In this document: piece by piece, positions 5,571-16,869 of the stretch
Layout of the letters: each line of letters begins with the position of its first letter
Position numbering within the stretch: position 1 is the first letter of the stretch
From: Candidatus Altiarchaeota archaeon
GTDB taxonomy: Archaea; Altiarchaeota; Altiarchaeia; IMC4; SCGC-AAA252-I15
NCBI GenBank assembly: GCA_043813075.1
Contig: JBDRLL010000027.1
Coordinates: 1-17,858 of the forward strand
Reading direction: 5' to 3'
DNA: 17,858 bases
Made by a program: the position numbers and the translations under genes
Notes under the pieces: generated by a model
The model's database searches: none
The model's input: only the letters and a program-made list of their open reading frames with translations
What the model was told of the DNA's origin: nothing

Positions 5571-7598
5571 TCACTTTATCCTGCTGCCTTCCCTGACCCT
5601 GCTTTCAGGCTGCAGTATTATGGGCTTACCCTCCTCGTCGGCCGCCAGCAGCATGCCCTTCGATTCCACACCGCGTATCTTGGCTGGCTTCAGGTTTGCC
5701 ACCACGATAATCTGCCTGCCTTCCAGTTCTTCTGGCTTGTACTGCTCTCGTATGCCTGCAACGATCTTTCGTTCGCCGAGCTCTCCCACGTCTATGGTGA
5801 GGAGCAAAAGCTTGTCCGCGTTAGGATGGTCTTCCACCTTCTTTATCGTCGCTACACGCATGTCTATCCTGCTGAACTCGTCATACTCCACTTCAATCAC
5901 CTCATCCTTACTGCTTTCTCCAGTTGCCGGAAGATACTTCCCCTTGAATTCGCGTATCTCATCCTCCTCTATCTTAGAATATAATGCTTTGACCTTACCT
6001 ATCCCATGCCCTGGCATGACTCCAAGCTCCCCAGCAGACTCCCAAGCCTGATCCGCAACCCGGCCTTCCAGGCCGAGCATAGCCCACACCTTCTCCGCTG
6101 AGAACGGCAGTAGCGGGTGCATTAGTATGGCGAGGCTACGGCACAGGTTAGCGCAAAGGTACAGTGTCGTGTCGTTCTCGCCCTTCCACGGCTCCTTGTT
6201 CTGGAAGTATACGTTCCCCCTCTGAGCGCAATGCATCAACGCGTCCAACGCATTCTTGAACTTGAACCGGTCCAGTTCTCCACCAACGACTTCAGGGCAT
6301 TTTTTAATCCCATCCTCGAACGCCTTGTCATCCTTATTCATGTCTCCTGGCGCAGGGACTACTCCCCCCTTCTTGCTTTCTATGAACGTTAGCGTCCGGT
6401 TCATGAAGTTTCCGAGGGTTCCAATCAGCTCCTTATTCACCTTGTCCCTGAATTCGTCGAGCTTGAAGTCGCTGTCACTGGTCTCCGGGGCTATCGAGAG
6501 CAGATAATACCTCACCGCGTCCGGGTCGAACTCACCGAGTATGTCGTGGAGCCAGATAACCCACCCCCTGCTCGTCGACATCTTACGGCCTTCAAGATTC
6601 AGGAACTCGTTGCTCGCCACCTGCCAGGGCAGGTTGTAGGAGCCTTCCGCCATGAGCGTGGCAGGCCATATAACTATGTGGAATGGGATGTTATCCTTGC
6701 CTATGAAGTGGACTATCCTACAGTCCTTATCTCTCAGCCAGTATTCCTTCCATGCTTCAGGCTCCCCCCTTCCCTCAGCCCACTCCTTGGTCGAACTTAT
6801 GTATCCTATGGGCGCGTCAAACCAGACGTACAAGACTTTGCCTTCAGCACCCTCTGCGGGGACCGGGATGCCCCAGTTCATGTCGCGTGTTATCGCCCTG
6901 TCCTTCAAGCCCTCCCTTATCCACCCTAAAGCAAAGTTCTTCGCATTGTTGGGGAGGCTTGGACTTACCTTATCACCGTCAACCCACTCCTTCAGCTTAT
7001 CCCCTAGTCTGCTGAGCTCGAAAAACCAGTGGTCAGTCTCCCTCATCACCGGCGTCTCACGGCATATGTCGCAGTAAGGGTCGACGAGCTCATGAGGCTC
7101 CAACTGCTTCCCACAGGCCTCGCACTGGTCTCCGCGCTCGTCCTCTGAACCGCATTCCGGGCACTTTCCCTTAACGTATCTGTCCGGGAGGAACCTGCCG
7201 CACTTCGGACAGTAAGGCCTCTCCACAGTCTCCTTGTGTATGTACCCGTTCTCATCGACTTTCCTGAAGAAATCCTGTGATATCCTATGGTGCACTTCCC
7301 TGGCAGTGCCTGAAAAATTATCGAAGTCAACGCCAATACCCTTGAAAGCGTCCTCATGCATCCTATGGTATTTGTCCACCACTTCCCTGGGGCTCACGCC
7401 CTCCTTCTCGGCAGTCACTGTTATAGGCGTCCCATGCTCGTCGGTACCGCAAATGTATATCACGTCATTACCACACAGCCTGTTGTACCTCGTGTAAACG
7501 TCCGCTGGTATGTAACAGCCTATGGCGTGCCCTACATGTATGGGGCCGTTAGCGTATGGTAGTGCTGCTGTAACAAGTATTCTCTCTTTTTTGGGCAT
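5571..7598 (-). CDS. metG: Methionine--tRNA ligase with C-terminal tRNA-binding (Trbp111/EMAP-like) domain
   Basis: ALPYANGPIHVGH (HIGH), GTDEHG, zinc knuckles, LYVWFDAPIGY, HFIGKDNIPFH, KMSTSRG (KMSKS), and OB-fold HPNADKLL...NLKPAKIRGVESKGMLLAA. ATG 7598 has TTTTATTTAA about 25 bp upstream. Confidence 0.98.
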   Translation of the reverse strand: MPKKERILVTAALPYANGPIHVGHAIGCYIPADVYTRYNRLCGNDVIYICGTDEHGTPITVTAEKEGVSPREVVDKYHRMHEDAFKGIGVDFDNFSGTAREVHHRISQDFFRKVDENGYIHKETVERPYCPKCGRFLPDRYVKGKCPECGSEDERGDQCEACGKQLEPHELVDPYCDICRETPVMRETDHWFFELSRLGDKLKEWVDGDKVSPSLPNNAKNFALGWIREGLKDRAITRDMNWGIPVPAEGAEGKVLYVWFDAPIGYISSTKEWAEGRGEPEAWKEYWLRDKDCRIVHFIGKDNIPFHIVIWPATLMAEGSYNLPWQVASNEFLNLEGRKMSTSRGWVIWLHDILGEFDPDAVRYYLLSIAPETSDSDFKLDEFRDKVNKELIGTLGNFMNRTLTFIESKKGGVVPAPGDMNKDDKAFEDGIKKCPEVVGGELDRFKFKNALDALMHCAQRGNVYFQNKEPWKGENDTTLYLCANLCRSLAILMHPLLPFSAEKVWAMLGLEGRVADQAWESAGELGVMPGHGIGKVKALYSKIEEDEIREFKGKYLPATGESSKDEVIEVEYDEFSRIDMRVATIKKVEDHPNADKLLLLTIDVGELGERKIVAGIREQYKPEELEGRQIIVVANLKPAKIRGVESKGMLLAADEEGKPIILQPESRVREGSRIK

Positions 7599-7637
7599 GG
7601 GATAGATTATTGAGAAGTCGTTAAATAAAACCAATGG

Positions 7638-7680
7638 AAAAAGAAAAGAATTTGGGTGCCCGTCCTATGGACGGGCTTTT
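7638..7680 (-). terminator. Hairpin plus U-rich tract after the GILT-like gene
   Basis: Perfect 8-bp stem GCCCGTCC(7658-7665)-TAT-GGACGGGC(7669-7676), followed on the minus strand by TTCTTTTCTTTTT. Confidence 0.7.
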
Positions 7681-7692
7681 ACTGCAACAAGC

Positions 7693-9531
7693 CTAGCCGC
7701 ACGCGCCTGCCGCAACCGGTTGCGCCGGCTGTCCTGCAAGCGTGTTCTCGCAGCCTTCAAGACCCTCGTTATAAGCGCAGTAGTTGCTCTTTATGGTCTC
7801 GGAGTCCAGTCCGCTGAACGTGTACTTGTTGTTAGCCAGCCATGTTGGGCTTGCACCTACTCCGAGCGACTGGGCAATCTTCAGGTCCTCTTTCAAAAGA
7901 CCCTTGCCTTCATCGCCTTCAGCGCACGACTTCATCTTCGCCAAGTCCATTCCCGCCTCAGTAACGCAATTGCTCCATTCGGCGTTCATGTTCTTGTCCC
8001 TGCACCACACGTAGTCCATGTACCTGTAGTTGTCTGGATAATACTTCATGGCGCACAATTCCCTGATGTTCTCGTCAACCTCTGGCTGACCGTGCAGTGA
8101 GTTAAAAGTGTCTGTCTGCTCGCTGTAGGATGCGATGTAGTGTATGTTGAAGTCTATGTTTTCGCCGAAGTTCTCCAGCACGTCCTTCATCGCGTCCAGG
8201 GCTCTCATGCCGTACGGGCACATGCTCATCACGTACACGTCAAGCTTCTTCTCCATCTCCTCGCGGCACTTCATGTCTTCAACACAGTCCGGGTCATCAC
8301 AGTCTATCTTACCGTTGCCTGTGTCGTCCTTCTCGTTGTCGCATATCTCCTTTGTGGGATCGAAGTCCGAGCCTATCGCCAGGTCGTAGTATTTCCCTTT
8401 CTGAGTGAGGTATCTCTGCACGCTACTGTATCCCTCGCCCTTTGTGACTGACTCGTCGAACAGTATTGCTGGCAGGTACTTAAGCCCCACGTCACCGTAG
8501 AACTTCTTCCCATCCTGTGTTCCGTAGTCGTAGTCAGTGAACACTATCCCCGGGAATATGGCCTTCAGCTGGCTCTTTATCGACGTGACGTCGCTGTCAC
8601 AGGTCTCACACCTGCTGTCTGACATTGTTACCGCCATCACCTTCACAGGCTCCGGTATGTTCGAACAGGCGTCCGGCTTATTGCCTGGGAACTCATTGCA
8701 TATCGCCCTTAGGAAGTCGGTGCTCTTCCTGCTTCCACTGTACTGCTTGTTGTTTATGTACATGGTCGGGCTTCCCCTCGCCTGCCTGTTTGCCGCCTTC
8801 TTGGATGACTCTGACAGCAGATTCTTGCCCTGGTCTCCGTTATAACAGCTCTTTATCCCCTCGACGTCCATGTTATTCTCCTTTGCACAAGACTCCCAGT
8901 TGTCTGGTATGTTCTGCGCATTCTTGTTCATGCACACGACCATGTCCATGTACTTGTCCGGACTGATGTCGGCGGCGCACAACTGGACTATATTACCTCT
9001 AACCTCCTTCTCACCGTGCAGTGACGTGAATGTCCCATCACCATTGTCTGTCGCAATGAAATCCAGGTGGAAGTCAACAGAGCCACCTATCTGGTCGAGA
9101 ACCGGCTTTATAGCGTCCTCAACCTGCGTGCCGAACGGGCACTGGCTCATAACATAGAATTCTACAGTAACCTTGTCTCCCATATTGCCTGGTTTCGTGG
9201 TCGCGGTTGGCTTGGCCTTGAGCGTGGTGGTCACCCCGGCCGATCCCCCAACCTTCATCTTCTCGACCTCACTCTTCAGAGAGCTGTTCTCATAGAAGAA
9301 GTAGAAGTTCAGTAATAGCGACAGGAACAGGAAAACCACGAGGAGAACGTCCAGTGATACCGACTTCTCCTTATCCTCCTTTATGTCGTCGCTAACGTAT
9401 GCAGTCTTTGAAGGCTTTTTCCTTGCAGCCTTTTTTGAAGACTTTTTCCTGACAGCCTTCTTCTTAGACTCCTTAACCTCTTCGGGTGCGGGAGTAACGT
9501 CCAAATCCTTTTTCACTTCATCATCTGCCAT
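7693..9531 (-). CDS. Membrane-anchored Cys-rich protein with two GILT/DsbA-like thioredoxin-fold domains
   Basis: Basic N-tail, single TM (VLLVVFLFLSLLLNFYFFY), Thr-rich linker, and duplicated domains FYVMSQCPFG...SLHGEKEVRGNIVQLCA...GSPTMYIN and VYVMSMCPYG...SLHGQPEVDENIRELCA...ASPTWLAN. Confidence 0.75.
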   Translation of the reverse strand: MADDEVKKDLDVTPAPEEVKESKKKAVRKKSSKKAARKKPSKTAYVSDDIKEDKEKSVSLDVLLVVFLFLSLLLNFYFFYENSSLKSEVEKMKVGGSAGVTTTLKAKPTATTKPGNMGDKVTVEFYVMSQCPFGTQVEDAIKPVLDQIGGSVDFHLDFIATDNGDGTFTSLHGEKEVRGNIVQLCAADISPDKYMDMVVCMNKNAQNIPDNWESCAKENNMDVEGIKSCYNGDQGKNLLSESSKKAANRQARGSPTMYINNKQYSGSRKSTDFLRAICNEFPGNKPDACSNIPEPVKVMAVTMSDSRCETCDSDVTSIKSQLKAIFPGIVFTDYDYGTQDGKKFYGDVGLKYLPAILFDESVTKGEGYSSVQRYLTQKGKYYDLAIGSDFDPTKEICDNEKDDTGNGKIDCDDPDCVEDMKCREEMEKKLDVYVMSMCPYGMRALDAMKDVLENFGENIDFNIHYIASYSEQTDTFNSLHGQPEVDENIRELCAMKYYPDNYRYMDYVWCRDKNMNAEWSNCVTEAGMDLAKMKSCAEGDEGKGLLKEDLKIAQSLGVGASPTWLANNKYTFSGLDSETIKSNYCAYNEGLEGCENTLAGQPAQPVAAGACG

Positions 9532-10480: not shown

Positions 10481-11347
10481 TCACCTGACTGGATGCAATC
10501 CATTTCTAACCGTAGCTTTTTCAAGTGCCATGTATACCTTGTCTCTCACTCCAGGGTCTGGTAGTCTGAATCCAGTCGACCTTGCTCCTTCAAGAAATCC
10601 TAGTGCATCCTCCAACTTAATCCTCATGTCTCCCCCCTCTCTTGGCAGTATGACTGGGGGGTGTTCGTCATTTTCATGTCTTAAAAATATTATGTCTGCC
10701 AACTCCACTTCTCTTGGCGTGAACTCCATCTTTTTCCATGGTGGCATCATTGCTGCTACTGATGTTCCCACAACCCTTGATAGTCTCGTGGAGAAGTTAT
10801 ACCACACCTTCCTGTCAGTAAAAGCTTCATCTGATTGCCCGCCCACCAAATCCAGGTAAGGTGTGTTTGGGACAAGCATCCGTCTTAAGGCACCCTCCAC
10901 CCGTCTCATTGTAGTGCTACCATGGATTCCTGTCTGAATCACCTTCGGCTGCCCGCCTTCATTATCCACTCCAGCAAGTACGAATCCGTCATCCATAACC
11001 TTAATGTTAAATCTCCTTCCTAGTTTTGCGATGGCAGTGGATTTTCCTATTCCAGGCGGCCCTGTAAGCATCACTGCCTTTCCGTTCGCTTCAAATGCAA
11101 TTCCATGCATCAGTATCATGTCACCTACATTAAATTCTCCCCTGACCCTATCTACCTCCTCTTGGTCGTATTCCCTACCCTGGGGTATTCTCAGAGGGAA
11201 TACTATTGCTCCCATTGGGGCTATGGCTTCTCTCATCACCTGGGTCAGTTTCTTCACTCCTATGGTTGTAAGAGCTCTGTATACTATATCCCCCTGCTGT
11301 CTTGCTCCCTCTTGAGGTAAATCTCCTGAACTTGCGCTTCCCATCAT
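10481..11347 (-). CDS. HPr-kinase-like P-loop protein
   Basis: MHGIAFEANGKAVMLTGPPGIGKST (His-x + Walker A arrangement of the HPrK/PEPCK fold) followed by the VMDD acidic pair. Start placed at ATG 11347 (or 11344). Confidence 0.7.
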   Translation of the reverse strand: MMGSASSGDLPQEGARQQGDIVYRALTTIGVKKLTQVMREAIAPMGAIVFPLRIPQGREYDQEEVDRVRGEFNVGDMILMHGIAFEANGKAVMLTGPPGIGKSTAIAKLGRRFNIKVMDDGFVLAGVDNEGGQPKVIQTGIHGSTTMRRVEGALRRMLVPNTPYLDLVGGQSDEAFTDRKVWYNFSTRLSRVVGTSVAAMMPPWKKMEFTPREVELADIIFLRHENDEHPPVILPREGGDMRIKLEDALGFLEGARSTGFRLPDPGVRDKVYMALEKATVRNGLHPVR

Positions 11348-11378
11348 TATTATAATCTCAATGACACAATAAATCAAG
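11347..11378. promoter_or_regulatory. Crossed divergent TATA-like promoters for mtrA (+) and the HPrK-like gene (-)
   Basis: TTATTATAAT at 11347-11356 lies about 25-30 bp before ATG 11379; ATTTATT (minus strand, 11368-11374) lies about 25 bp before ATG 11347/11344. Confidence 0.5.
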
Positions 11379-11957
11379 ATGGAACACCGGCTTTACCCTT
11401 GGGGAGGGAAGTTCGATAAGGGTAGTGCGGAGAGTTCTGTCGCGGTCGTGACCCTGTCCGACGAGATATCCCTGCCCAAAGACAAGGTCGCGTTATTCGG
11501 TGCGATGAAGACTGAGAACCTGGGTGTCGAGAAGGTTATCGCCAACATCGTGTCAAACCCGATCATACGGTTCGTCATAGTCTGCGGCAAGGAAGTAAGA
11601 GGCCATCGTTCCGGCGACTCTATAGTAAATATATATAAGAACGGTGTCGACGAGAACAACAGGGTGGTCGGCGCGAAGAGCGCGATACCCTACATAGAGA
11701 ACCTTCCCGTGGATGCTGTTGACCGCTTCAGAAGGCAGGTCGAGTTGGTAGATCTTGTTGACGTCACTGATGAATCCAGGATTTTAATGGAGATAGACAA
11801 ATGCTTAAAACAGGGTAAGAAACCGTTCGGGGAGCCGTTGTATGTTGAGCCACTTGCGAAGGGCACCCGCAAGGAGTCGGTGCACACTGAGATAGGGCTT
11901 CATGCAGGCATTGACTTGGACTTGTACGGTTACGTGCGGTCTCCGGAGTGTGTTTAA
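11379..11957 (+). CDS. mtrA: Soluble MtrA-like corrinoid protein (MtxA type, no membrane anchor)
   Basis: SSVAVVTL, KTENLGVEKVIANIVSNP.IRFVIVCGKEVRGH (cobalt-ligating His), IPYIENL...AVDRFRRQVELVDL; no hydrophobic C-terminal helix. Confidence 0.92.
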   Translation: MEHRLYPWGGKFDKGSAESSVAVVTLSDEISLPKDKVALFGAMKTENLGVEKVIANIVSNPIIRFVIVCGKEVRGHRSGDSIVNIYKNGVDENNRVVGAKSAIPYIENLPVDAVDRFRRQVELVDLVDVTDESRILMEIDKCLKQGKKPFGEPLYVEPLAKGTRKESVHTEIGLHAGIDLDLYGYVRSPECV

Positions 11958-11959
11958 GG

Positions 11960-12895
11960 ATGTACGCTTTCAGTAGAGAACAGAATGTGGTCGAATTGGG
12001 TGGTGTGCTTTTTGGCGGGCAGCCTGGGCAGAACCCAACAGTACTGTTCGGCACACTATTCTACGGCAAGCAGTGGGCTAGCCTGGGTAAGGGCAGTCTG
12101 GAGAATGCGAAGAGTCTTGTCGAAGCCCAGGATGCGGTGGGTGATGAACTCGGGATTCCTGGAATAGTCGACATATACGTGAAGGATGAGGGAATGCTGA
12201 AGAAAGAGATAGACCTGGTTGCGGACTCAACAGAAAAACCATTCTCAATAGACATATCAGCTTCAGAGCTTAGGATAAAGGCGTTGCAGTACCTGGATGA
12301 GGCAGGACTGCTCGGCAGGGTAATCTACAACTCGATTAACCTTGGCATAACCGAAGACGAGGTCTTGGCATTGAAGGAGCACGCTCCCGCCGCCGCGATA
12401 CTCCTGGCTTATAACCCTAAGGACACCAGCGTCGACGGCAGGATAGAGATACTCCAGACTGGTGCGGGCATGATAGCTCTAGGTGAAAAGAACATGGGTT
12501 TAATGGAGTTGTCAGAGCGTGTCGGAGTAAAGAACCTCATAATAGACACTGGTGCGACACCATTCGGCCAGCAGTCTGCCGAGACCCTTCGCGCCATCCC
12601 TGTGATGAAGAACGAGTTCGGGCTTCCAGTCGGATGCGCGATACATAATACCCTGGAGTCCTGGGTGTGGATGAAGAAAAACCCTGGGAGGGGAGAGATA
12701 TACGGGTATTGCGACAGCGCGGTCAACGCCCTGGTGCCATTGATGTCCGGCGACTTCATAGTATACGGTCCCATAGACTCCCACGAAATCGTCTTCCCTT
12801 CGATAGCGTTCGTCGACAAGCTCATGGCTGAGGGTGCTGCGGACTATTTCGGGGCTGAAATAGGCGAAAACCATCCCTACAAAAAGCTAGAATGA
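11960..12895 (+). CDS. mtrH: MtrH-family methyl-tetrahydropterin:corrinoid methyltransferase (MtxH type)
   Basis: GGQPGQNPTVLFGTLFY, RVIYNSIN, AAILLAYNP.D.SVDGR, FGLPVGCAIHN, GDFIVYGPI; ATG 2 bp after the mtrA stop. Confidence 0.93.
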   Translation: MYAFSREQNVVELGGVLFGGQPGQNPTVLFGTLFYGKQWASLGKGSLENAKSLVEAQDAVGDELGIPGIVDIYVKDEGMLKKEIDLVADSTEKPFSIDISASELRIKALQYLDEAGLLGRVIYNSINLGITEDEVLALKEHAPAAAILLAYNPKDTSVDGRIEILQTGAGMIALGEKNMGLMELSERVGVKNLIIDTGATPFGQQSAETLRAIPVMKNEFGLPVGCAIHNTLESWVWMKKNPGRGEIYGYCDSAVNALVPLMSGDFIVYGPIDSHEIVFPSIAFVDKLMAEGAADYFGAEIGENHPYKKLE

Positions 12896-13776
12896 TTCCC
12901 TGCAATGTTATCGGGAGCTATCCCCCGGTGCTGGACAAGTCCAAGTATGCGGACGCCTACCTAAGCGGGGGTATGCGGGATCCTTCAGGGGAGATGATAA
13001 GGAATGCCGTCAACTCACAGCTCGAAGCCGGCATAGACATCATCAGTGACGGTCAGACTCGGGCGGACTTCATATCCCTCTTCGCGAGGAACTTCAAGGG
13101 GGTACTCATGCAGCGACGTCCAGTCGTTGTCAGCGAAATCGAGTACAAGAATCCCGTTACTGTGGAAGACCAAGAGTTTGTCAGAAAAATCATTCCAAAG
13201 GAAACAATGTTGAAGGGCATTATCACCGGACCTTATACTCTCGCTAAATACAGTGAGAACCGTTTCTACAATGGCACTGAAGAACTCGCGTACGCGTACG
13301 CGGAGGGATTGAACAATGAGGCCAGGGCGTTGGACGGCGTAGTCGACTTCATCCAGGTGGACGAGCCTGAGTACAGCATAGATTATCCAGAGTATGCTGG
13401 CGGGCTTCTCGACACAGTCTTCAAGGGAGTCTCCAAGATTCGGATGCTCCACTCTTGCGGCGACGTTTCGCACGTATTCGAGGATATGGTTGAACTGAAC
13501 GTCGACGTCCTCGAACACGAGTTCGCCGCGAACCCGGAATTATTAAACACAGTAAAGCGAATAGACTTCAAGCAAAAGCTCGGATACGGCTGCCTAAGGT
13601 CTGACAAAGACCGTGTGGAGCCTGTAGACGAGGTTAAGACGATAGTGCGCAGGGCTCTTGACGTATACCCCCCGGGCAAGATACTGTTGAACCCGGATTG
13701 TGGGCTTAGGAACCTGCCTCCCAGGGTGGCGTTCCAGAAACTACGGAACATGGTGGAGGCCAGGAACTCCCTATAA
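12892..13776 (+). CDS. metE: Core (single-barrel, MesA-like) methionine synthase, methylcorrinoid:homocysteine methyltransferase
   Basis: VIGSYP, QLEAGIDIISDGQTR, KGIITGPYTLA, FIQVDEP, Zn ligands H-S-C...E...NPDCGL. At 294 aa it lacks the N-terminal folate-binding barrel. ATGA overlap with mtrH. Confidence 0.92.
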   Translation: MIPCNVIGSYPPVLDKSKYADAYLSGGMRDPSGEMIRNAVNSQLEAGIDIISDGQTRADFISLFARNFKGVLMQRRPVVVSEIEYKNPVTVEDQEFVRKIIPKETMLKGIITGPYTLAKYSENRFYNGTEELAYAYAEGLNNEARALDGVVDFIQVDEPEYSIDYPEYAGGLLDTVFKGVSKIRMLHSCGDVSHVFEDMVELNVDVLEHEFAANPELLNTVKRIDFKQKLGYGCLRSDKDRVEPVDEVKTIVRRALDVYPPGKILLNPDCGLRNLPPRVAFQKLRNMVEARNSL

Positions 13777-13811: not shown

Positions 13812-15386
13812 ATGGCGCAGATAATATCAGACCGTAGTGTACCTGGCTTCTCCCAGTCTGAAGGTGGCCTACTAGTCCCCGACTCCCCCCTGAAGTCCAT
13901 TGAAAACCAGAAGAGGGCTGTCGGAGGCCGAATAGACTTCGGAAGCCACTTCCAACACCGCTATAGTCTTATGCCCCGGGAAGGTGCTACTCCAGTGGAG
14001 CAGCTTGACGATTGTGTCAAACAGTTGAGAAATCTCACCGGCCGCAGAGGACTAAGCCTTAGTCACGCAGTCCAGATGACCGTCTTCGTACCTTCGGAAG
14101 GGTATGCTGATACAGTGAAGCAGCTTGAAAAGCATATGGAAGACGTTTACGGCGGGAAAGAGAATGTTCCGCCAATCAGTTTCGTTGGGCAGACCCCTGC
14201 GGACGGCAGGAAGTCCGGCATGGAGGCTGTCGTTATAGAGCCGAAGAAAGGCCATGAACTGATGATTAATCCTGGCATAATCGGTGCTGATGGCATTGCG
14301 GCTGTCGGCAGGCCGAAGGCAATCAATGAAGGCGAGATGGAGCGGCTGCTCGGCATGGAGGAGGGTTCCCTGAAGGGTGTTGGGGAGGCGAGGTATTCTG
14401 TAGTCATTGTGGGCGACGAGAAATGGGTTTACGCCGCTGGTCTGGCTGGGAATCCGGATTCAACTAACGCTGGCGAGAAGGCTTGGGGCGCACTGGCGAA
14501 GGAGATGGCTATACTTGTGCGTGAAGGAATATTCGAGAGGGATGCTGTGGTCAACACAGGACTGCTTAACTCTCATCACACAGTCCACGACATTATCGGC
14601 GACAACTACAACCACTTGAATGTGGTCCGCGACGAGATGTACAAGCGTATGGGAATATACAAGTACCCCTCTGCGACAGGAATAGGGTCTTTCTCAAGTG
14701 AGGGCGACGTCATAATCGGGATGATAGGCGCTAAGGGCGTTGACTATGAGCCTGTCGTCGTAGTCCAGCACGGTGAGGCTCACCAGTACTCGATGCAGTT
14801 CATGAAGCAGCAGGTCGTAGGAAAACCAGTTGGCGGCCAGGTTGATGCTACTGGAGTCGGAAAGCCGGTGTCGGTGCCTAAATTCAACAGGGCGTTATAC
14901 CTTCCAGGCCACGAAGTCGTTCTGGTTTCCGGTACAGCCTCAGTGGAGAAGGGAAAGGGGCTGCTCTATGGGCCGGAGGCGTTTGAGGCTGAAAGCCAGG
15001 CTAACGGCGGCAGGGGGGTGCAGCTTGACGTCACCGAGATAGTCGATTCAGTGGGAATGAAAAGAATTAGGGAGAGGGGTCTTGGAGTCATTGCTGGAGC
15101 AGACAACAGGGTATACTTCCGGGCGGAGACCGCAGCGGAAGCCCAGACCATAGTGACCATACGAAACATGACCCGTCTTCTAGCAGCTAAGGGGATGAGT
15201 CTGAACGACCTTGCCCACAGCAGGGTTTACGTTGCAGACCTCGACGACAGCGGCCGCGTAATGGACCTGGTAGGCAAGATATTCGGCAACAACCCAACGC
15301 AATGCGTTGAGGCTCCAGTCTGCTATAAAGGATGGCTGGTTGAGATAGAGGGCATTGCCGGGAAAAACAAGTCTCTGATACAGTGA
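13812..15386 (+). CDS. Multi-domain YjgF/Rid-fold protein of the chorismatase (FkbO/Hyg5)-like type
   Basis: PPISFVGQTP, YPSATGIG, PKFNRA, VLVSGTASV, AQT..TIRNM..LL, RVYV, APVCYKGWLVEIEGIA. Confidence 0.7.
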   Translation: MAQIISDRSVPGFSQSEGGLLVPDSPLKSIENQKRAVGGRIDFGSHFQHRYSLMPREGATPVEQLDDCVKQLRNLTGRRGLSLSHAVQMTVFVPSEGYADTVKQLEKHMEDVYGGKENVPPISFVGQTPADGRKSGMEAVVIEPKKGHELMINPGIIGADGIAAVGRPKAINEGEMERLLGMEEGSLKGVGEARYSVVIVGDEKWVYAAGLAGNPDSTNAGEKAWGALAKEMAILVREGIFERDAVVNTGLLNSHHTVHDIIGDNYNHLNVVRDEMYKRMGIYKYPSATGIGSFSSEGDVIIGMIGAKGVDYEPVVVVQHGEAHQYSMQFMKQQVVGKPVGGQVDATGVGKPVSVPKFNRALYLPGHEVVLVSGTASVEKGKGLLYGPEAFEAESQANGGRGVQLDVTEIVDSVGMKRIRERGLGVIAGADNRVYFRAETAAEAQTIVTIRNMTRLLAAKGMSLNDLAHSRVYVADLDDSGRVMDLVGKIFGNNPTQCVEAPVCYKGWLVEIEGIAGKNKSLIQ

Positions 15387-15468
15387 TTCATTTCTTGATT
15401 TTATGCATTCTTCATGCTGTTTAAACCCTTTTTGCCGTAAATATATGCTAGCACTCGCATTACCCTTA

Positions 15469-16497
15469 ATGATGAAGGGAATACTCTTGCTTTCCATCAT
15501 GCTTGCCTTGTCGTCTGTGGCGTCAGCCTACGATTGTTTAGACTCTGACGACGGTAAGAACGAGTTCAAGCAGGGCTACGTTCACATACCCGAGTCGACT
15601 GACATATACAAGCAGTACGACAACTGCTATCAACCCGACAGTATCCTCCCAGACGGCACTCCAGAGCGGGGTAAGAGGGTCTCATCATGCAGTTCAGATG
15701 ATTTGTGCTACGTGGTTGAGGCCTATTGCAGCAAGCCGTCGGCTTCCGGGGAATATGCTGTTGGAATAGAGTACATAAAATGCCTTCTAGGTTGTGAGGA
15801 CGGGGCGTGCCTATCATGCGAAGACTCTGATAAGGGCGAGTACTACTACATCAAGGGTGTGGTCAAGACGCCTTGGACAACGGCCTCCGACCGGTGTGAT
15901 GAGGAAGGCGGCAGAGGATTGTTCGAATACGTCTGCAGTAAGAGGGTGGACGGCAGGCATGAAGTGGACAAGATACTGTACGACTGCCCGTACGGCTGTC
16001 GTGATGGCGCATGCATGTCATTCGCTGAAAGCATAGGCGGCATTGAGATACCTGGCCTGATTAGGGAGAAGGAGTATGTTTACGCCTGTCAGGGATGCCA
16101 GTTGGAGGCTAAGATATGCATTCCAGTCGGAACCAGGCTTAAGGCAGGCGACACGGAATACTACTGTGGGCTTGGCGGCATCTTAACTTTTCAGGGAGAT
16201 GATCTGGCGGAGTGCCAGAACAACTATGAGTGCAAGACCAACCTATGCCTGGATGGCACATGCCTGCCAGACTGTACGGGCTGCTTCAGCGAGGACAAGG
16301 CTTGCATGCCATTCGGGTTCAGGACTGGTGGCGAATACTGCGACATAGACTATAAGCTCAAAGAACAGAGGCCTGAAGACCAGGAGTGCTCGAACAACTA
16401 CGAGTGCGCGACAGACACGTGTCTAGACGGTAAATGCGAGCCATCCAGCATGTTGGATAGGGTGATAAAGTGGATACGAAAGATGATCGGCGTCTAG
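15469..16497 (+). CDS. Secreted cysteine-rich repeat protein
   Basis: Signal peptide MMKGILLLSIMLALSSVASA, two CxDSDxG...CxxGCxDGAC repeats and two CxGC...ECxNNYECxTxxCLDGxC repeats; TAAATATAT about 25 bp upstream of ATG 15469. Confidence 0.8.
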   Translation: MMKGILLLSIMLALSSVASAYDCLDSDDGKNEFKQGYVHIPESTDIYKQYDNCYQPDSILPDGTPERGKRVSSCSSDDLCYVVEAYCSKPSASGEYAVGIEYIKCLLGCEDGACLSCEDSDKGEYYYIKGVVKTPWTTASDRCDEEGGRGLFEYVCSKRVDGRHEVDKILYDCPYGCRDGACMSFAESIGGIEIPGLIREKEYVYACQGCQLEAKICIPVGTRLKAGDTEYYCGLGGILTFQGDDLAECQNNYECKTNLCLDGTCLPDCTGCFSEDKACMPFGFRTGGEYCDIDYKLKEQRPEDQECSNNYECATDTCLDGKCEPSSMLDRVIKWIRKMIGV

Positions 16498-16512
16498 CCT
16501 GATTGAGCCTTG

Positions 16513-16869
16513 ATGCAGTTAAAAAACATTCCGCCCGAATATTATACGATGACCGTAAAGAGCGTTCCGTTCAAGCCGGATCCAAAGGGTTTCTTCTACA
16601 TCTACGTTGATGTGGAGCGTAAGGAGATTGTTGTGGAGCACTACAAGAATGTCGAGCGGAAGCTGGGCTTGAAGAAGGTTATCGTCTCCGGGAAAGTGAA
16701 CAGGAAGTTTAGGGGAAAGAAGGCGGAGAAAATATATCGTGAGATAATCGCACACAACCTTGTGTCGCTCATGGATCACGCAGCCTATCTTGGCGCGGAG
16801 CTGGCGAAAGCGGAATTGGCGTTGACCAAGGGCGTCGAATACGAGCAGGACGAGAAACTGACGATCTAG
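16513..16869 (+). CDS. Stand-alone DUF4346 domain protein
   Basis: DPKGFFYIYVD...IVVEHY...FRGKKA..IY..I....LVS..DHAAYLG.EL.KAE.AL..G.EYEQD matches the remembered DUF4346 pattern. Confidence 0.85.
   Translation: MQLKNIPPEYYTMTVKSVPFKPDPKGFFYIYVDVERKEIVVEHYKNVERKLGLKKVIVSGKVNRKFRGKKAEKIYREIIAHNLVSLMDHAAYLGAELAKAELALTKGVEYEQDEKLTI

What the first reader, a model, noticed from the sequence alone, without database searches (positions are those of the whole stretch)
11379..13776. Soluble mtrA-mtrH-core methionine synthase operon: a three-part pterin-corrinoid-homocysteine methyl relay
Seen: three genes packed as one unit (2 bp gap, then an ATGA overlap). MtrA keeps its cobalt-ligand His (EVRGH) but has no TM anchor, no mtrB-G or mtxX is adjacent, and the MetE homologue is a single catalytic barrel with intact Zn ligands. 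Known: MtrH moves methyl from methyl-H4MPT to the MtrA corrinoid, and archaeal core methionine synthases use methylcobalamin-type donors rather than folate; MtrA has been proposed as the donor for MesA in methanogens. Inference: parts of the Na+-pumping methanogenesis complex are redeployed as a stand-alone biosynthetic module, functionally a split MetH analogue built from different parts, in an organism that may not be a methanogen. The operon would be direct genomic-context evidence for the physiological donor and a function for orphan MtxA/MtxH pairs.
Basis: partly seen in the sequence, partly recalled or inferred. Interest (0 to 1): 0.85.

Follow-up and report, generated by a model that had tools for sequence, protein, structure and literature searches.

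The report
Soluble MtrA-MtrH-core MetE methionine synthase operon
A non-methanogenic archaeon carries a tightly packed, widely conserved operon that most likely makes methionine by passing a methyl group from a folate-type carrier through a vitamin-B12 protein borrowed from the methanogen toolkit to homocysteine, which would give a job to "methanogenesis" genes whose role outside methanogens has been unclear.

Summary
Three co-directional genes (2-bp gap, ATGA overlap) encode an anchorless MtrA-like corrinoid protein with the cobalt-ligand His, an MtrH-like pterin methyltransferase and a single-barrel MetE-type enzyme with intact zinc and homocysteine-binding residues.

- **Not a methanogen.** This Altiarchaeota genome (89% complete) gave no match for McrA, MtrE, MetH, a second MetE, CoFeSP, Mch or Mer. 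It has MetVF and FolD, so methyl-tetrahydrofolate is the likelier donor, not methyl-H4MPT.
- **Conserved synteny.** Among the 80 closest Mes loci, each from a different species (Altiarchaeota, Thermoplasmatota and others), mtrH lies directly upstream in 70 of 72 testable loci and mtrA in 63 of 66.
- **A fourth gene.** A DUF4346 gene follows in 69 of 80 loci. In this window two inserted genes displace it to 16510-16869.
- **Module genomes.** Of 50 tested, 0 have McrA or the MetH homocysteine domain, and 46 have MTHFR.
- **Within Altiarchaeota** the module and split or full-length MetE never co-occur.
- **The Mes proteins** form a sister clade to methanogen MesA.

Nothing has been tested biochemically. 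Print holds only hints (Price 2021; Price and Arkin 2024). This scan found the same cassette earlier in another genome (e1-1423876). I class it as a new variant of a known kind.

The parts
11350..11355 (+). TTATAA hexamer 24-29 nt upstream of the mtrA ATG. It may be an archaeal TATA box for a leaderless operon transcript (inference only).
   Evidence: Read directly. Its function is inferred from the usual archaeal TATA-to-start spacing (recalled) and was not tested.
11379..11957 (+). mtrA-like gene: a soluble corrinoid (B12) carrier protein of 192 aa. His76 is the lower cobalt ligand. There is no C-terminal transmembrane helix, and the C-terminal tail carries an invariant His175.
   Evidence: PF04208 169.9 bits. 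NF002126 173.7 bits against a cut-off of 161. 5laa 150 bits, with His76 aligned to His84. No hydrophobic tail. Conserved columns, including H175. Only MtrA copy in the genome.
11960..12895 (+). mtrH-like gene: a methyl-pterin:corrinoid methyltransferase of 311 aa.
   Evidence: PF02007 245.7 bits and weak PF00809 Pterin_bind 18.7 bits. TIGR01114 267.0 against a cut-off of 271.4. PDB MtrH 9qtp_o 207 bits, and methylcorrinoid:THF methyltransferase 6sj8 139 bits. Only copy in the genome.
12892..13776 (+). Core methionine synthase (MesA-like, 294 aa): a single MetE-type zinc barrel. It is predicted to be a methylcorrinoid:homocysteine methyltransferase.
   Evidence: PF01717 130.6 bits. NF002119 244.3 against a cut-off of 258. 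Zn ligands H187/C189/E210/C270 and substrate residues S9/Q55/D157. 34-40% identical to named methanogen MesA-type proteins. Separate clade with 100/100 support. Only PF01717 match in the genome.
13812..15386 (+). FkbO/Hyg5/RidA-fold protein of 524 aa, inserted in the array. It is specific to this genus and probably not part of the relay.
   Evidence: PF01042 50 bits at residues 439-516. Atlas structure match to RidA/FkbO-like clusters, TM 0.64-0.66 by query and 0.84-0.86 by target. No tblastn hit in any of the 80 loci. Present after mes in the same-genus genome G083, 53% identity.
15403..16497 (+). Cys-rich protein of 364 aa with a hydrophobic N-terminus, probably secreted, inserted in the array. 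It belongs to no known family and probably not to the relay.
   Evidence: 0 Pfam and 0 NCBIfam families. No tblastn hit in any of the 80 loci.
16510..16869 (+). DUF4346 (PterinBD-DUF4346) protein of 119 aa. It is the conserved fourth member of the module, displaced here by the two inserted genes but still in the same tightly spaced, same-strand array (gaps 35, 16 and 12 nt).
   Evidence: PF14251 98.1 bits. The gene lies directly after mes in 69 of 80 loci. The domain is fused to MtrA-like domains in 15 of 20 long MtrA homologues tested. AF2 model pLDDT 83.6, with no PDB fold match at E<=0.001.

Best explanation
The unit is a multi-component, corrinoid-dependent methionine synthase, and it is the organism's only recognisable one.

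Proposed steps:
1. MetVF, encoded elsewhere, makes a methyl-pterin, most likely 5-methyl-tetrahydrofolate.
2. The MtrH-like barrel binds the methyl-pterin and methylates Co(I) of the cobamide held by the soluble MtrA-like protein (His76, base-off/His-on).
3. Methyl-Co(III)-MtrA docks on the core MetE-type barrel (Mes). There zinc (H187, C189, E210, C270) activates homocysteine, which takes the methyl group to give methionine and regenerates Co(I).
4. DUF4346 is an accessory partner of the MtrA/MtrH half, with an unknown role.

Functionally this is a MetH analogue assembled from non-MetH parts.

What is shown here: the gene content, the conserved residues, the operon conservation and the phyletic patterns. 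What is inferred by homology: the direction of transfer, the identity of the pterin, physical docking, and the way oxidised Co(II) is reactivated. None of these was tested.
For: 1. Tight packing in the window and across relatives. By most-upstream ORF starts, the median gaps are 0, -4 and -17 nt. Gaps of 50 nt or less occur in 50 of 54 (mtrA to mtrH), 63 of 65 (mtrH to mes) and 56 of 57 (mes to DUF4346) loci.

2. Synteny in the best 80 of 558 Mes-encoding loci, one genome per species. mtrH lies directly upstream on the same strand in 70 of 72 loci with room, mtrA in 63 of 66, and DUF4346 follows in 69 of 80. The other conserved neighbours are unrelated housekeeping genes, mostly on the opposite strand.

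3. Sole methionine synthase. In the own genome the PF01717 match is single and the MetH homocysteine domain PF02574 is absent. Across 50 module genomes PF02574 is found in 0 of 50, and 47 of 50 have exactly one NF002119 match. That model also detects full-length MetE in the controls.

4. No other corrinoid donor. CdhD is absent from the own genome and strong in only 2 of 50 module genomes. All 16 PF02310 matches in the own genome lie in open frames of 460-617 aa, which I take to be B12-radical-SAM enzymes from their size alone.

5. Not methanogenesis. McrA is found in 0 of 50 module genomes and not in the own genome; MtrE passes its cut-off in 0 of 50.

6. Pterin supply. MetV+MetF and FolD are in the own genome. 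MTHFR is in 46 of 50 module genomes, FolD in 46 of 51, Mch in 2 of 50 and Mer in 0 of 51.

7. Complementary distribution among 61 Altiarchaeota genomes. Ten have close MtrH, MtrA and a single core Mes. Twenty-three have split or full-length MetE and no MtrH or MtrA. None has both.

8. Catalytic residues. Zinc HCEC plus S/Q/D, with Gln in place of E. coli Glu484. Price 2021 gives that as the MesA signature (section 11).

9. Established biochemistry of the families, taken from passages in papers. MtrH methylates the MtrA cobamide from methyl-H4MPT. MesA and core-MetE use methylcobalamin rather than methyl-folate, with a KM high enough that a corrinoid protein is expected as the donor.
Against: - No biochemical or genetic test exists for any member of this clade.
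- No reductive activator was found: RACo PF14574 gave 0 matches in the own genome, and no MetH activation domain can be present because MetH is absent. How Co(II) is rescued is therefore unexplained.
- The MtrH-like protein scores closer to H4MPT-type MtrH (207 bits) than to the THF enzyme MtgA (139 bits). The folate assignment therefore rests on phyletic pattern only. Two module genomes (G038, G043) have Mch and CODH/ACS and no FolD, so they may use H4MPT.
- One locus (L038) has the Mes gene with no mtrA or mtrH in the 3.2 kb upstream, and two (L052, L087) have mtrA away from mtrH.
- In the same-genus genome G083 a 706-aa ORF of no known family sits between mtrH and mes.
- Six Altiarchaeota genomes have a divergent MtrH (34-42% identity) without Mes, so MtrA/MtrH also serve something else.
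- The own genome is 89% complete and the 50 module genomes are MAGs of unstated completeness, so absences are not proofs.
- Only the best 80 of 558 relatives were examined. I chose the 50 genomes from those 80 for contig length and label diversity, not at random.
Confidence: 0.75

Rival explanations
1. Catabolic three-component methyltransferase running the other way. The Mes-like barrel would strip a methyl group from methionine or another methyl-thioether onto MtrA, and the MtrH-like enzyme would pass it to tetrahydrofolate for oxidation. This is how MtgA works in the glycine-betaine system.
For: The MtrH family includes enzymes that work in the corrinoid-to-THF direction: 6sj8 is named methylcorrinoid:tetrahydrofolate methyltransferase and scores 139 bits. 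NF047990 MtgA scores 161.6 bits. The layout of a substrate methyltransferase, a corrinoid protein and a pterin methyltransferase is typical of methylotrophic systems. FolD is present for oxidation.
Against: - The Mes gene is the only methionine-synthase homologue in the own genome and in 47 of 50 module genomes.
- The module is mutually exclusive with MetE types among Altiarchaeota, which is the pattern of a biosynthetic replacement.
- The homocysteine-binding residues S/Q/D are invariant.
- Transfer from a thioether to N5 of a pterin is thermodynamically uphill (general knowledge, not computed here).
Confidence: 0.07
2. The same relay, but fed by methyl-tetrahydromethanopterin as in methanogens: MtrH keeps its canonical substrate.
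For: The MtrH-like protein misses the TIGR01114 equivalog cut-off by only 4 bits (267.0 against 271.4). Its best solved match is MtrH of the Mtr complex. Two module genomes have Mch and CODH/ACS with MTHFR but no FolD.
Against: Mch and Mer were not found in the own genome, and MetVF and FolD are present. Across module genomes Mch is in 2 of 50 and Mer in 0 of 51, against MTHFR in 46 of 50 and FolD in 46 of 51. H4MPT biosynthesis genes were not searched.
Confidence: 0.12
3. MtrA and MtrH form a methyl-THF:coenzyme M (or other thiol) methyltransferase, or they funnel methyl groups into the Wood-Ljungdahl pathway, as proposed in print. On this view the adjacent Mes gene is only a neighbour that uses another donor.
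For: Proposed for MtrAH of Lake-Pavin Methanomassiliicoccales by Speth and Orphan 2018 (passages). Adam 2022 reports the Wood-Ljungdahl idea as the current hypothesis (passage).
Against: - McrA is found in 0 of 50 module genomes and not in the own genome.
- CdhD is strong in only 2 of 50 and absent from the own genome.
- By my reading of passages, the CoM-methylating site of Mtr lies on the membrane subunits around MtrE, and these are absent.
- The gene order with overlapping stops and starts is kept in about 70 species.
- No other corrinoid donor for Mes is encoded.
Confidence: 0.05

Closest known systems
MesA, the core methionine synthase of methanogens (methylcobalamin:homocysteine methyltransferase), with MtrA as its predicted donor (Price, Deutschbauer and Arkin 2021, PMC7857596; Price and Arkin 2024, PMC11378808)
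   Same: Single MetE-type barrel of about 300 aa with no folate-binding domain. Zinc ligands HCEC and substrate residues S/Q/D, with Gln for Glu484. An MtrA-type corrinoid protein is the proposed donor. NF002119 scores 244 bits here and exceeds its cut-off in 20 of 50 relatives.
   Different: - The window protein is 34-40% identical to named methanogen proteins (37%, 165 blastp bits to Methanothermobacter tenebrarum). Price's family bar is about 40% identity, or 174 phmmer bits, to METE_METTM.
- It lies in a separate clade with 100/100 support.
- It occurs in non-methanogens, whereas MesA was reported only in methanogens.
- It is encoded with its own soluble MtrA, MtrH and DUF4346, rather than borrowing MtrA from the membrane Mtr complex.
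- The likely pterin is folate, not H4MPT.
Cobalamin-dependent methionine synthase MetH
   Same: The same overall chemistry is proposed: methyl-pterin to Co(I) to zinc-activated homocysteine. The pterin-binding barrel of MtrH is distantly related to the Pterin_bind family PF00809, which holds MetH's folate module (weak PF00809 hit of 18.7 bits).
   Different: Here there are separate polypeptides. The corrinoid domain is MtrA-type; Wagner 2016's abstract calls it not homologous to any known B12-binding protein (listing). The homocysteine module is MetE-type, not PF02574, which gave no match. No SAM-dependent reactivation module is present.
N5-methyl-H4MPT:coenzyme M methyltransferase MtrA-H of methanogens
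   Same: MtrA and MtrH homologues with the His84 ligand, its Glu54 partner and the GAIPYxEN meander. The first half-reaction, pterin to cobamide, is presumably the same.
   Different: MtrA has no transmembrane helix. MtrE was not found (MtrB-D, F and G were not searched genome-wide), so no Na+ pumping is expected. The acceptor is homocysteine on a soluble zinc enzyme rather than CoM at the membrane. DUF4346 is added.
Three-component corrinoid methyltransferase systems with an MtrH-family member (MtgA/MtgB/MtgC of Desulfitobacterium; the Mto system of Methermicoccus, PMC8630106, search listing only)
   Same: Soluble MtrH-family pterin methyltransferase, plus a separate corrinoid protein, plus a substrate-specific methyltransferase.
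   Different: Those systems use a MetH-type B12-binding corrinoid protein (my recollection; not checked in any call), run catabolically towards the pterin, and come with a RamA/RACo activator. Here the corrinoid protein is MtrA-type, the predicted flow is biosynthetic, and no RACo gene was found.
MesB/MesC with the CoFeSP of the Wood-Ljungdahl pathway (Price 2021; Deobald 2020, PMC7005905)
   Same: [quoted passage not shown] An operon with the donor's genes serves as the argument.
   Different: A different Mes family and a different corrinoid protein. CoFeSP (CdhD) is absent from the own genome and from 46 of 50 module genomes, with 2 strong and 2 marginal matches.

Membership tests
MesA family (Price 2021) | Single Meth_synt_2 barrel without the MetE N-terminal folate-binding domain, at most about 386 aa | tested here: met
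   294 aa. PF01717 covers residues 3-290. PF08267 scores 23.1, under its cut-off of 27.
MesA family (Price 2021) | Zinc ligands H/C/E/C and homocysteine-binding S, Q (in place of E. coli Glu484) and D | tested here: met
   H187, C189, E210, C270, S9, Q55 and D157 align with the MetE positions and are invariant in 23 relatives. The signature is as stated in section 11 of PMC7857596.
MesA family (Price 2021) | At least 174 phmmer bits (about 40% identity) to METE_METTM | tested here: inconclusive
The proxy, Methanothermobacter tenebrarum P0278, gives 37% identity and 165 blastp bits; other named methanogen proteins give 34-40%. In the tree the window clade is split from the methanogen side with 100/100 support.
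MesA family (Price 2021) | Found only in methanogens that carry the Mtr complex | tested here: not met
   McrA and MtrE gave no match in the own genome. Across module genomes McrA is found in 0 of 50 and MtrE over its cut-off in 0 of 50.
NCBIfam NF002119 (PRK00957, methionine synthase equivalog) | Score at or above the curated cut-off of 258 bits | tested here: not met
   244.3 bits. Among 50 module genomes, 20 pass and 30 fall just below, over a range of 215-296 bits.
MtrA (PF04208; subunit A of the Mtr complex) | MtrA B12-binding fold with the His84 ligand, Glu54 and the GAIPF/YxEN segment | tested here: met
   PF04208 169.9 bits. NF002126 173.7 against a cut-off of 161. His76 aligns with His84. 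His76, E46, P104, I106, E107 and N108 are conserved in at least 95% of 64 sequences.
MtrA (PF04208; subunit A of the Mtr complex) | C-terminal transmembrane anchor and assembly with MtrB-G (equivalog TIGR01111) | tested here: not met
   No hydrophobic C-terminal segment. TIGR01111 scores 158.4 against a cut-off of 249. MtrE was not found. Assembly itself cannot be tested with these tools.
MtrH (PF02007; TIGR01114) | MtrH-family pterin methyltransferase barrel; equivalog score at or above 271.4 | tested here: inconclusive
   PF02007 scores 245.7 bits, so the family criterion is met. TIGR01114 scores 267.0, 4 bits under its cut-off. Pterin specificity cannot be read from the sequence with these tools.
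MtxX/MtxA/MtxH cluster of methanogens | Presence of mtxX beside the mtxA and mtxH paralogues | tested here: not met
   No such gene among the 7 ORFs around the trio scanned with NCBIfam. TIGR03270 (methanogenesis marker 4) gave 0 matches in the own genome. That TIGR03270 is the MtxX family is my recollection and comes from no call.
MetH (cobalamin-dependent methionine synthase) | Homocysteine S-methyltransferase domain PF02574 together with a MetH-type B12-binding domain and an activation domain | tested here: not met
   PF02574 gave 0 matches in the own genome and in 0 of 50 module genomes. All PF02310 matches lie in open frames of 460-617 aa. The module works like MetH but is not a member of that family.

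The most novel reading that the evidence does not exclude
The soluble MtrA/MtrH/DUF4346 set is an old, general 'methyl-pterin to cobamide' platform. Its original job was biosynthetic, in methionine synthesis and perhaps other methylations. The Na+-pumping Mtr complex of methanogens then arose later, when this platform was tethered to membrane subunits.

Several observations fit this reading:
- A 2026 reconciliation study inferred only MtrA and MtrH, of the eight Mtr subunits, in the last archaeal common ancestor under one of its two roots (PMC13473441, passage).
- MtrA-DUF4346 fusions are widespread (15 of 20 long homologues tested).
- The MtrA domain is fused to thymidylate-synthase-like (5 of 20) and dCTP-deaminase (1 of 20) domains, which hints at further acceptors.

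No rooted MtrA or MtrH tree was built here. The Altiarchaeota module is nested among Thermoplasmatota sequences in a midpoint-rooted tree and is confined to two families of its phylum, which looks like lateral transfer rather than antiquity in this lineage.
Probability: 0.15. Interest if true: 0.85.

Novelty: new variant of a known kind. Interest (0 to 1): 0.65.

Why it matters
**A job for orphan MtrAH genes.** Papers on non-methanogenic archaea have listed MtrA and MtrH as unexplained 'methanogenesis remnants'.
- Adam 2022 calls their role 'currently unclear'.
- Zinke 2020 writes 'unknown function'.
- Speth and Orphan 2018 proposed a methyl-THF:CoM transferase.

A conserved operon with the only methionine synthase homologue of these genomes offers a concrete and ordinary job, at least for this large clade. 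It also warns against reading such genes as signs of methane metabolism in metagenomes.

**A testable system.** The operon turns Price's prediction that MtrA feeds a core methionine synthase into an experiment with four soluble proteins, with no membrane complex needed.

**A third methionine synthase architecture.** The module would add a distinct B12-dependent architecture beside MetH and the CoFeSP-fed Mes enzymes.

**A context for DUF4346.** It places DUF4346, a domain found in no paper of the searchable library, in a defined biochemical setting.

**Genome annotation.** These genes are currently named hypothetical protein, 5-methyltetrahydropteroyltriglutamate--homocysteine methyltransferase, or Mtr subunits. 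Pathway tools would therefore score these organisms as methionine auxotrophs or as partial methanogens.

Tried and rejected
- **Expression.** The look-up of sequencing runs listed no RNA holder.
- **Fused forms of Mes.** The 'longer' search found none at E<=1e-20, which the tool itself calls weak evidence. None of the 20 long MtrA homologues carried a Mes or MtrH domain.
- **DUF4346 fold.** Foldseek against the PDB gave 0 matches at E<=0.001, so no function could be read from structure.
- **Reductive activator.** RACo PF14574 gave 0 matches in the own genome. The upstream divergent P-loop gene (10481-11377) and the two inserted genes have no counterpart in the 80 loci, so I rejected them as module members.
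- **Context of the divergent MtrA/MtrH type.** In G092 and G096 the neighbours are triosephosphate isomerase, SAICAR synthetase, a pseudouridine synthase, DUF460 and pilin-like proteins, which give no lead.
- **Mes proteins closer to the MesA model.** The two such genes in G038 and G043 have no mtrA or mtrH within about 4.5 kb (0 of 2). This serves only as a small negative control.
- **Motif regex.** A strict regex for the His motif matched only 16 of 66 proteins. I replaced it with an alignment, which shows the His in 64 of 64.
- **Earlier scan notes.** A lookup by the Mes sequence found nothing. A lookup by words found one earlier report.
- **The preprint holding both 'mtrAH' and 'methionine synthase'** turned out to be unrelated.
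- **Not done.** Rooted MtrA and MtrH trees (no named reference sequences were reachable), H4MPT and folate biosynthesis genes, homocysteine biosynthesis genes, and the remaining 478 of 558 Mes-encoding loci.
- **Supplements were closed.** S1 Table of Price 2021 and figures S1/S2 (MtrA and MtrH trees) of Adam 2022 may already show these clades.

Full report
**What is in the sequence.**
The window is contig C27 of a 1.80-Mb, 41-contig genome that is 89.3% complete. Earlier notes of this scan place it in Altiarchaeota, and the names of the closest Mes homologues agree. The window's other genes are archaeal: RNase P p30, a geranylgeranyl-reductase-like flavoprotein and MetRS.

The finding's three ORFs are as described:
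- 11379-11957 (192 aa).
- ATG 11960-12895 (311 aa), starting 2 bp after the first gene's stop.
- 12892-13776 (294 aa), overlapping the second gene in ATGA.

Pfam and NCBIfam name them MtrA (169.9 bits), MtrH (245.7 bits; TIGR01114 267.0 against a cut-off of 271.4) and the catalytic barrel of MetE (130.6 bits; NF002119 'methionine synthase' 244.3 against 258).

Three more genes follow on the same strand, with gaps of 35, 16 and 12 nt:
- a 524-aa RidA/FkbO-fold protein;
- a 364-aa Cys-rich protein of no family;
- a 119-aa DUF4346 protein at 16510-16869 (PF14251, 98 bits).

A TTATAA hexamer lies 24-29 nt before the mtrA ATG. It would suit an archaeal promoter of a leaderless transcript, but that is inference only.

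**Residues.**
- *MtrA-like protein.* His76 aligns with His84 of the solved MtrA homologue 5laa. Wagner 2016 gives His84 as the cobalt ligand, with Glu54 and a GAIPF/YxEN segment as the most conserved parts (passages). His76 is kept in 64 of 64 module MtrA proteins. Glu46 and P104/I106/E107/N108 are kept in at least 95% of them.
- *No anchor.* Canonical MtrA has a C-terminal transmembrane helix. Here the most hydrophobic 19-residue stretch (mean 1.48) lies in the Rossmann core. No module MtrA has a hydrophobic tail, and the median length is 189 aa. Instead there is a roughly 40-residue tail with an invariant His175.
- *Mes.* H187, C189, E210 and C270 align with the zinc-ligand positions of T. 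maritima MetE, and S9, Q55 and D157 with the substrate-binding positions. All seven are invariant in 23 relatives. Price 2021 (section 11, read in full) gives HCEC plus S/Q/D, with Gln replacing Glu484, as the MesA and MesC pattern.

**The organism is not a methanogen and has no other methionine synthase.**
In the own genome MtrA, MtrH and PF01717 each match once, all three in this window. The following gave no match:
- McrA and MtrE;
- Mch and Mer;
- CdhD;
- the MetH homocysteine domain PF02574;
- RACo and TIGR03270.

All 16 B12-binding-domain matches sit in open frames of 460-617 aa, a size that suggests B12-radical-SAM enzymes. MtrA is therefore the only carrier-type corrinoid protein seen.

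A MetV-MetF pair (DUF5981 plus MTHFR) lies on contig C41, and FolD lies on C28. The genome is incomplete, so each absence is provisional. The set as a whole points to a folate-type C1 pathway ending in a methyl-pterin.

**Synteny.**
I aligned 23 of the 120 listed Mes homologues and used the alignment to scan one genome per prokaryote species. Of the stretches matched, 558 encode a relative, and the tool kept the best 80.

By their record titles these are:
- 59 Thermoplasmata, Thermoplasmatales or Thermoplasmatota;
- 7 Altiarchaeota, two of them assigned through;
- 5 'Methanomassiliicoccales';
- 5 'Methanobacteriota';
- 2 Undinarchaeota;
- 1 Nanoarchaeota;
- 1 unclassified.

With tblastn of the window's proteins:
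- mtrH lies directly upstream on the same strand in 70 of 72 loci with at least 1000 nt of room. L013 has it 740 nt away, and L038 lacks it.
- mtrA lies upstream of mtrH in 63 of 66 loci with room. L052 and L087 have it elsewhere in the locus, and L038 has none.
- A DUF4346 gene follows mes in 69 of 80 loci, counting tblastn and blastp clustering together.

Gaps are minimal. The other recurrent neighbours (RadA, an OB-fold protein, NAD kinase, an aminotransferase, ScpA/B) lie mostly on the opposite strand and reflect lineage synteny.

The window's two inserted genes and the upstream P-loop gene have no counterpart in any of the 80 loci. The RidA-fold gene does follow mes in the same-genus genome G083, where an extra 706-aa ORF of no family also separates mtrH from mes.

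**Phyletic pattern.**
I searched the genomes behind 50 of the 80 loci, chosen for contig length and label diversity.

| Family | Genomes with a match |
|---|---|
| McrA | 0 of 50 |
| MtrE over cut-off | 0 of 50 |
| PF02574 (MetH homocysteine domain) | 0 of 50 |
| CdhD | 2 strong, 2 marginal of 50 |
| Mch | 2 of 50 |
| Mer | 0 of 51 (own genome included) |
| MTHFR | 46 of 50 |
| FolD | 46 of 51 (own genome included) |

NF002119 also detects full-length MetE in the control genomes. It matches exactly once in 47 of 50 genomes, so the module's Mes is their only MetE-like gene.

The two genomes with Mch and CODH/ACS (G038, G043) lack FolD. They also carry a second Mes that is closer to the MesA model (315 and 313 bits) and has no mtrAH nearby.

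**Within the phylum.**
Of 61 Altiarchaeota genomes, 16 have an MtrH match and 14 an MtrA match. All are in families f1 and f5.
- Ten genomes, including this one, have a close MtrH (50-100% identity), MtrA and a single core Mes beside it.
- Six have a divergent MtrH (34-42% identity). It is followed by DUF4346 in the two cases I looked at, with MtrA on another contig or not found, and no convincing Mes.
- Twenty-three genomes have split MetE (two adjacent PF01717 genes) or full-length MetE and no MtrA or MtrH.
- No genome has both systems.
- Twenty-two have neither.

Related genomes are not independent, so this is a pattern and not a statistic. It is the pattern expected if the module replaces MetE.

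**Family placement.**
The window's Mes is 34-40% identical to named methanogen proteins, among them Methanocella arvoryzae 'methylcobalamin:homocysteine methyltransferase' and Methanothermobacter tenebrarum (37%, 165 bits).

I built a 46-sequence tree from 24 of the 120 hits and 22 of the 120 hits. Hits were chosen for diversity or for carrying a name, and the tree is midpoint-rooted. The window-like clade is separated from the methanogen side by a branch with 100/100 support. Within it the six Altiarchaeota sequences nest among Thermoplasmatota sequences. Together with the patchy distribution in the phylum, this suggests lateral acquisition (inference).

**DUF4346.**
- The domain occurs in no paper of the library.
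- Of 20 long MtrA homologues taken from the 150 listed representatives (695 hits at E<=0.001), 15 carry a DUF4346 domain after the MtrA domain. Five carry a thymidylate-synthase-like domain, and single examples carry dCTP deaminase, ArsR-type HTH and TusA domains.
- NCBIfam also places the domain at the end of a dihydropteroate-synthase-like protein family (TIGR00284).
- The AF2 model (pLDDT 83.6; three long strands and two helices) has no PDB match at E<=0.001.
- A co-fold of MtrA with DUF4346 gave weak support. The score was 0.44 against a best control of 0.02. The mark was reached by 58 of 80 solved complexes and 2 of 110 mismatched pairs. At 0.60 or under, only 7 of those 80 solved complexes reached it, as did both mismatches that passed. 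The runs agree in at least 33% of contacts and the partner's pLDDT is at least 75. My own alignments were used, so these counts hold only roughly.

With the fusions as a prior, I read DUF4346 as a partner of the MtrA/MtrH half. It may stand in for the juxtamembrane segment that stabilises the cobamide in canonical MtrA (Wagner 2016). That role is a guess.

**Literature.**
- Price 2021 (sections 7 and 11 and further passages) found MesA only in methanogens. The paper predicted MtrA as its donor from phyletic profile, not from gene context.
- Deobald 2020 (passages) recalls that Schroeder and Thauer considered MtrH-related candidates.
- Adam 2022, Zinke 2020 and Speth and Orphan 2018 discuss non-methanogen MtrAH. 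None mentions methionine, and the last two do not mention metE either; each term searched occurs 0 times.
- Only one paper in the library holds both 'mtrAH' and 'methionine synthase', and it is unrelated.
- Supplements were closed and may hold relevant trees or tables.
- This scan reported the same four-gene cassette earlier in another genome (e1-1423876). My analysis was done before I saw that note, and it agrees.

**Verdict.**
The best explanation is a four-gene, soluble, B12-dependent methionine synthase fed by a methyl-pterin. My confidence is 0.75 for the relay and about 0.65 for folate as the pterin. It is a new variant of a known kind, MesA-type core synthases with a corrinoid donor. 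It is widespread in uncultured archaea and directly testable.

Noticed in passing
proteins P0154, P0195, P0196, P0206, P0228, P0215: MtrA-like corrinoid domains are fused to thymidylate-synthase-like domains (5 of 20 long homologues tested) and once to a dCTP deaminase, often together with DUF4346. This hints at an undescribed corrinoid-linked enzyme of pyrimidine or C1 metabolism.
   Followed up: partly
L113 (G092:C5) and L115 (G096:C29); MtrA on L114 and L116: A second, divergent MtrH type in Altiarchaeota (34-42% identical to the window's). It is followed directly by a DUF4346 gene, has MtrA on another contig, and has no Mes or MetE in the genome. Its acceptor is unknown, and its neighbours gave no lead.
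   Followed up: partly
L112 (G083:C15), ORF 6117-8237 minus strand: In the same-genus genome a 706-aa ORF with no Pfam family sits between mtrH and mes, overlapping the end of mtrH. The window has no such gene there.
   Followed up: partly
window 13812-15386: A 524-aa protein whose Atlas model matches RidA/FkbO-Hyg5 (chorismatase-like) clusters, all of them bacterial in the listing. It is conserved after mes only in this genus.
   Followed up: partly
window 15403-16497: A 364-aa Cys-rich protein with a hydrophobic N-terminus and repeated C-x-C/'NNYEC' motifs. It has no family in Pfam or NCBIfam.
   Followed up: no
window 7693-9531 minus strand: A 612-aa protein with a Lys-rich N-terminus, one hydrophobic segment and two GILT/DsbA-like thioredoxin-fold modules. 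It is probably an extracytoplasmic disulfide oxidoreductase.
   Followed up: no
window 5571-7634 minus strand: Methionyl-tRNA synthetase lies 3.7 kb from the methionine synthase module. This is probably coincidence, since it is not a neighbour in the 80 other loci.
   Followed up: partly
G038 (L063, L093) and G043 (L075, L094): Two genomes labelled Undinarchaeota are 3.6-3.8 Mb and carry Mch, CODH/ACS, MTHFR without FolD or Mer, and two Mes genes (one in the module, one closer to the MesA model). That size and metabolism are unexpected for the label, so the label or the binning may be wrong.
   Followed up: no
window 10481-11377 minus strand: A divergent P-loop protein with weak HprK-related-kinase-like hits. 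If it starts at its first ATG (11347), about 31 nt separate it from mtrA. It is not conserved beside the module elsewhere.
   Followed up: partly
alignment A3, window MtrA residue 175: An invariant His in the C-terminal tail that replaces the membrane anchor of canonical MtrA (46 of 46 sequences). It could be a second cobalt-facing or docking residue.
   Followed up: no
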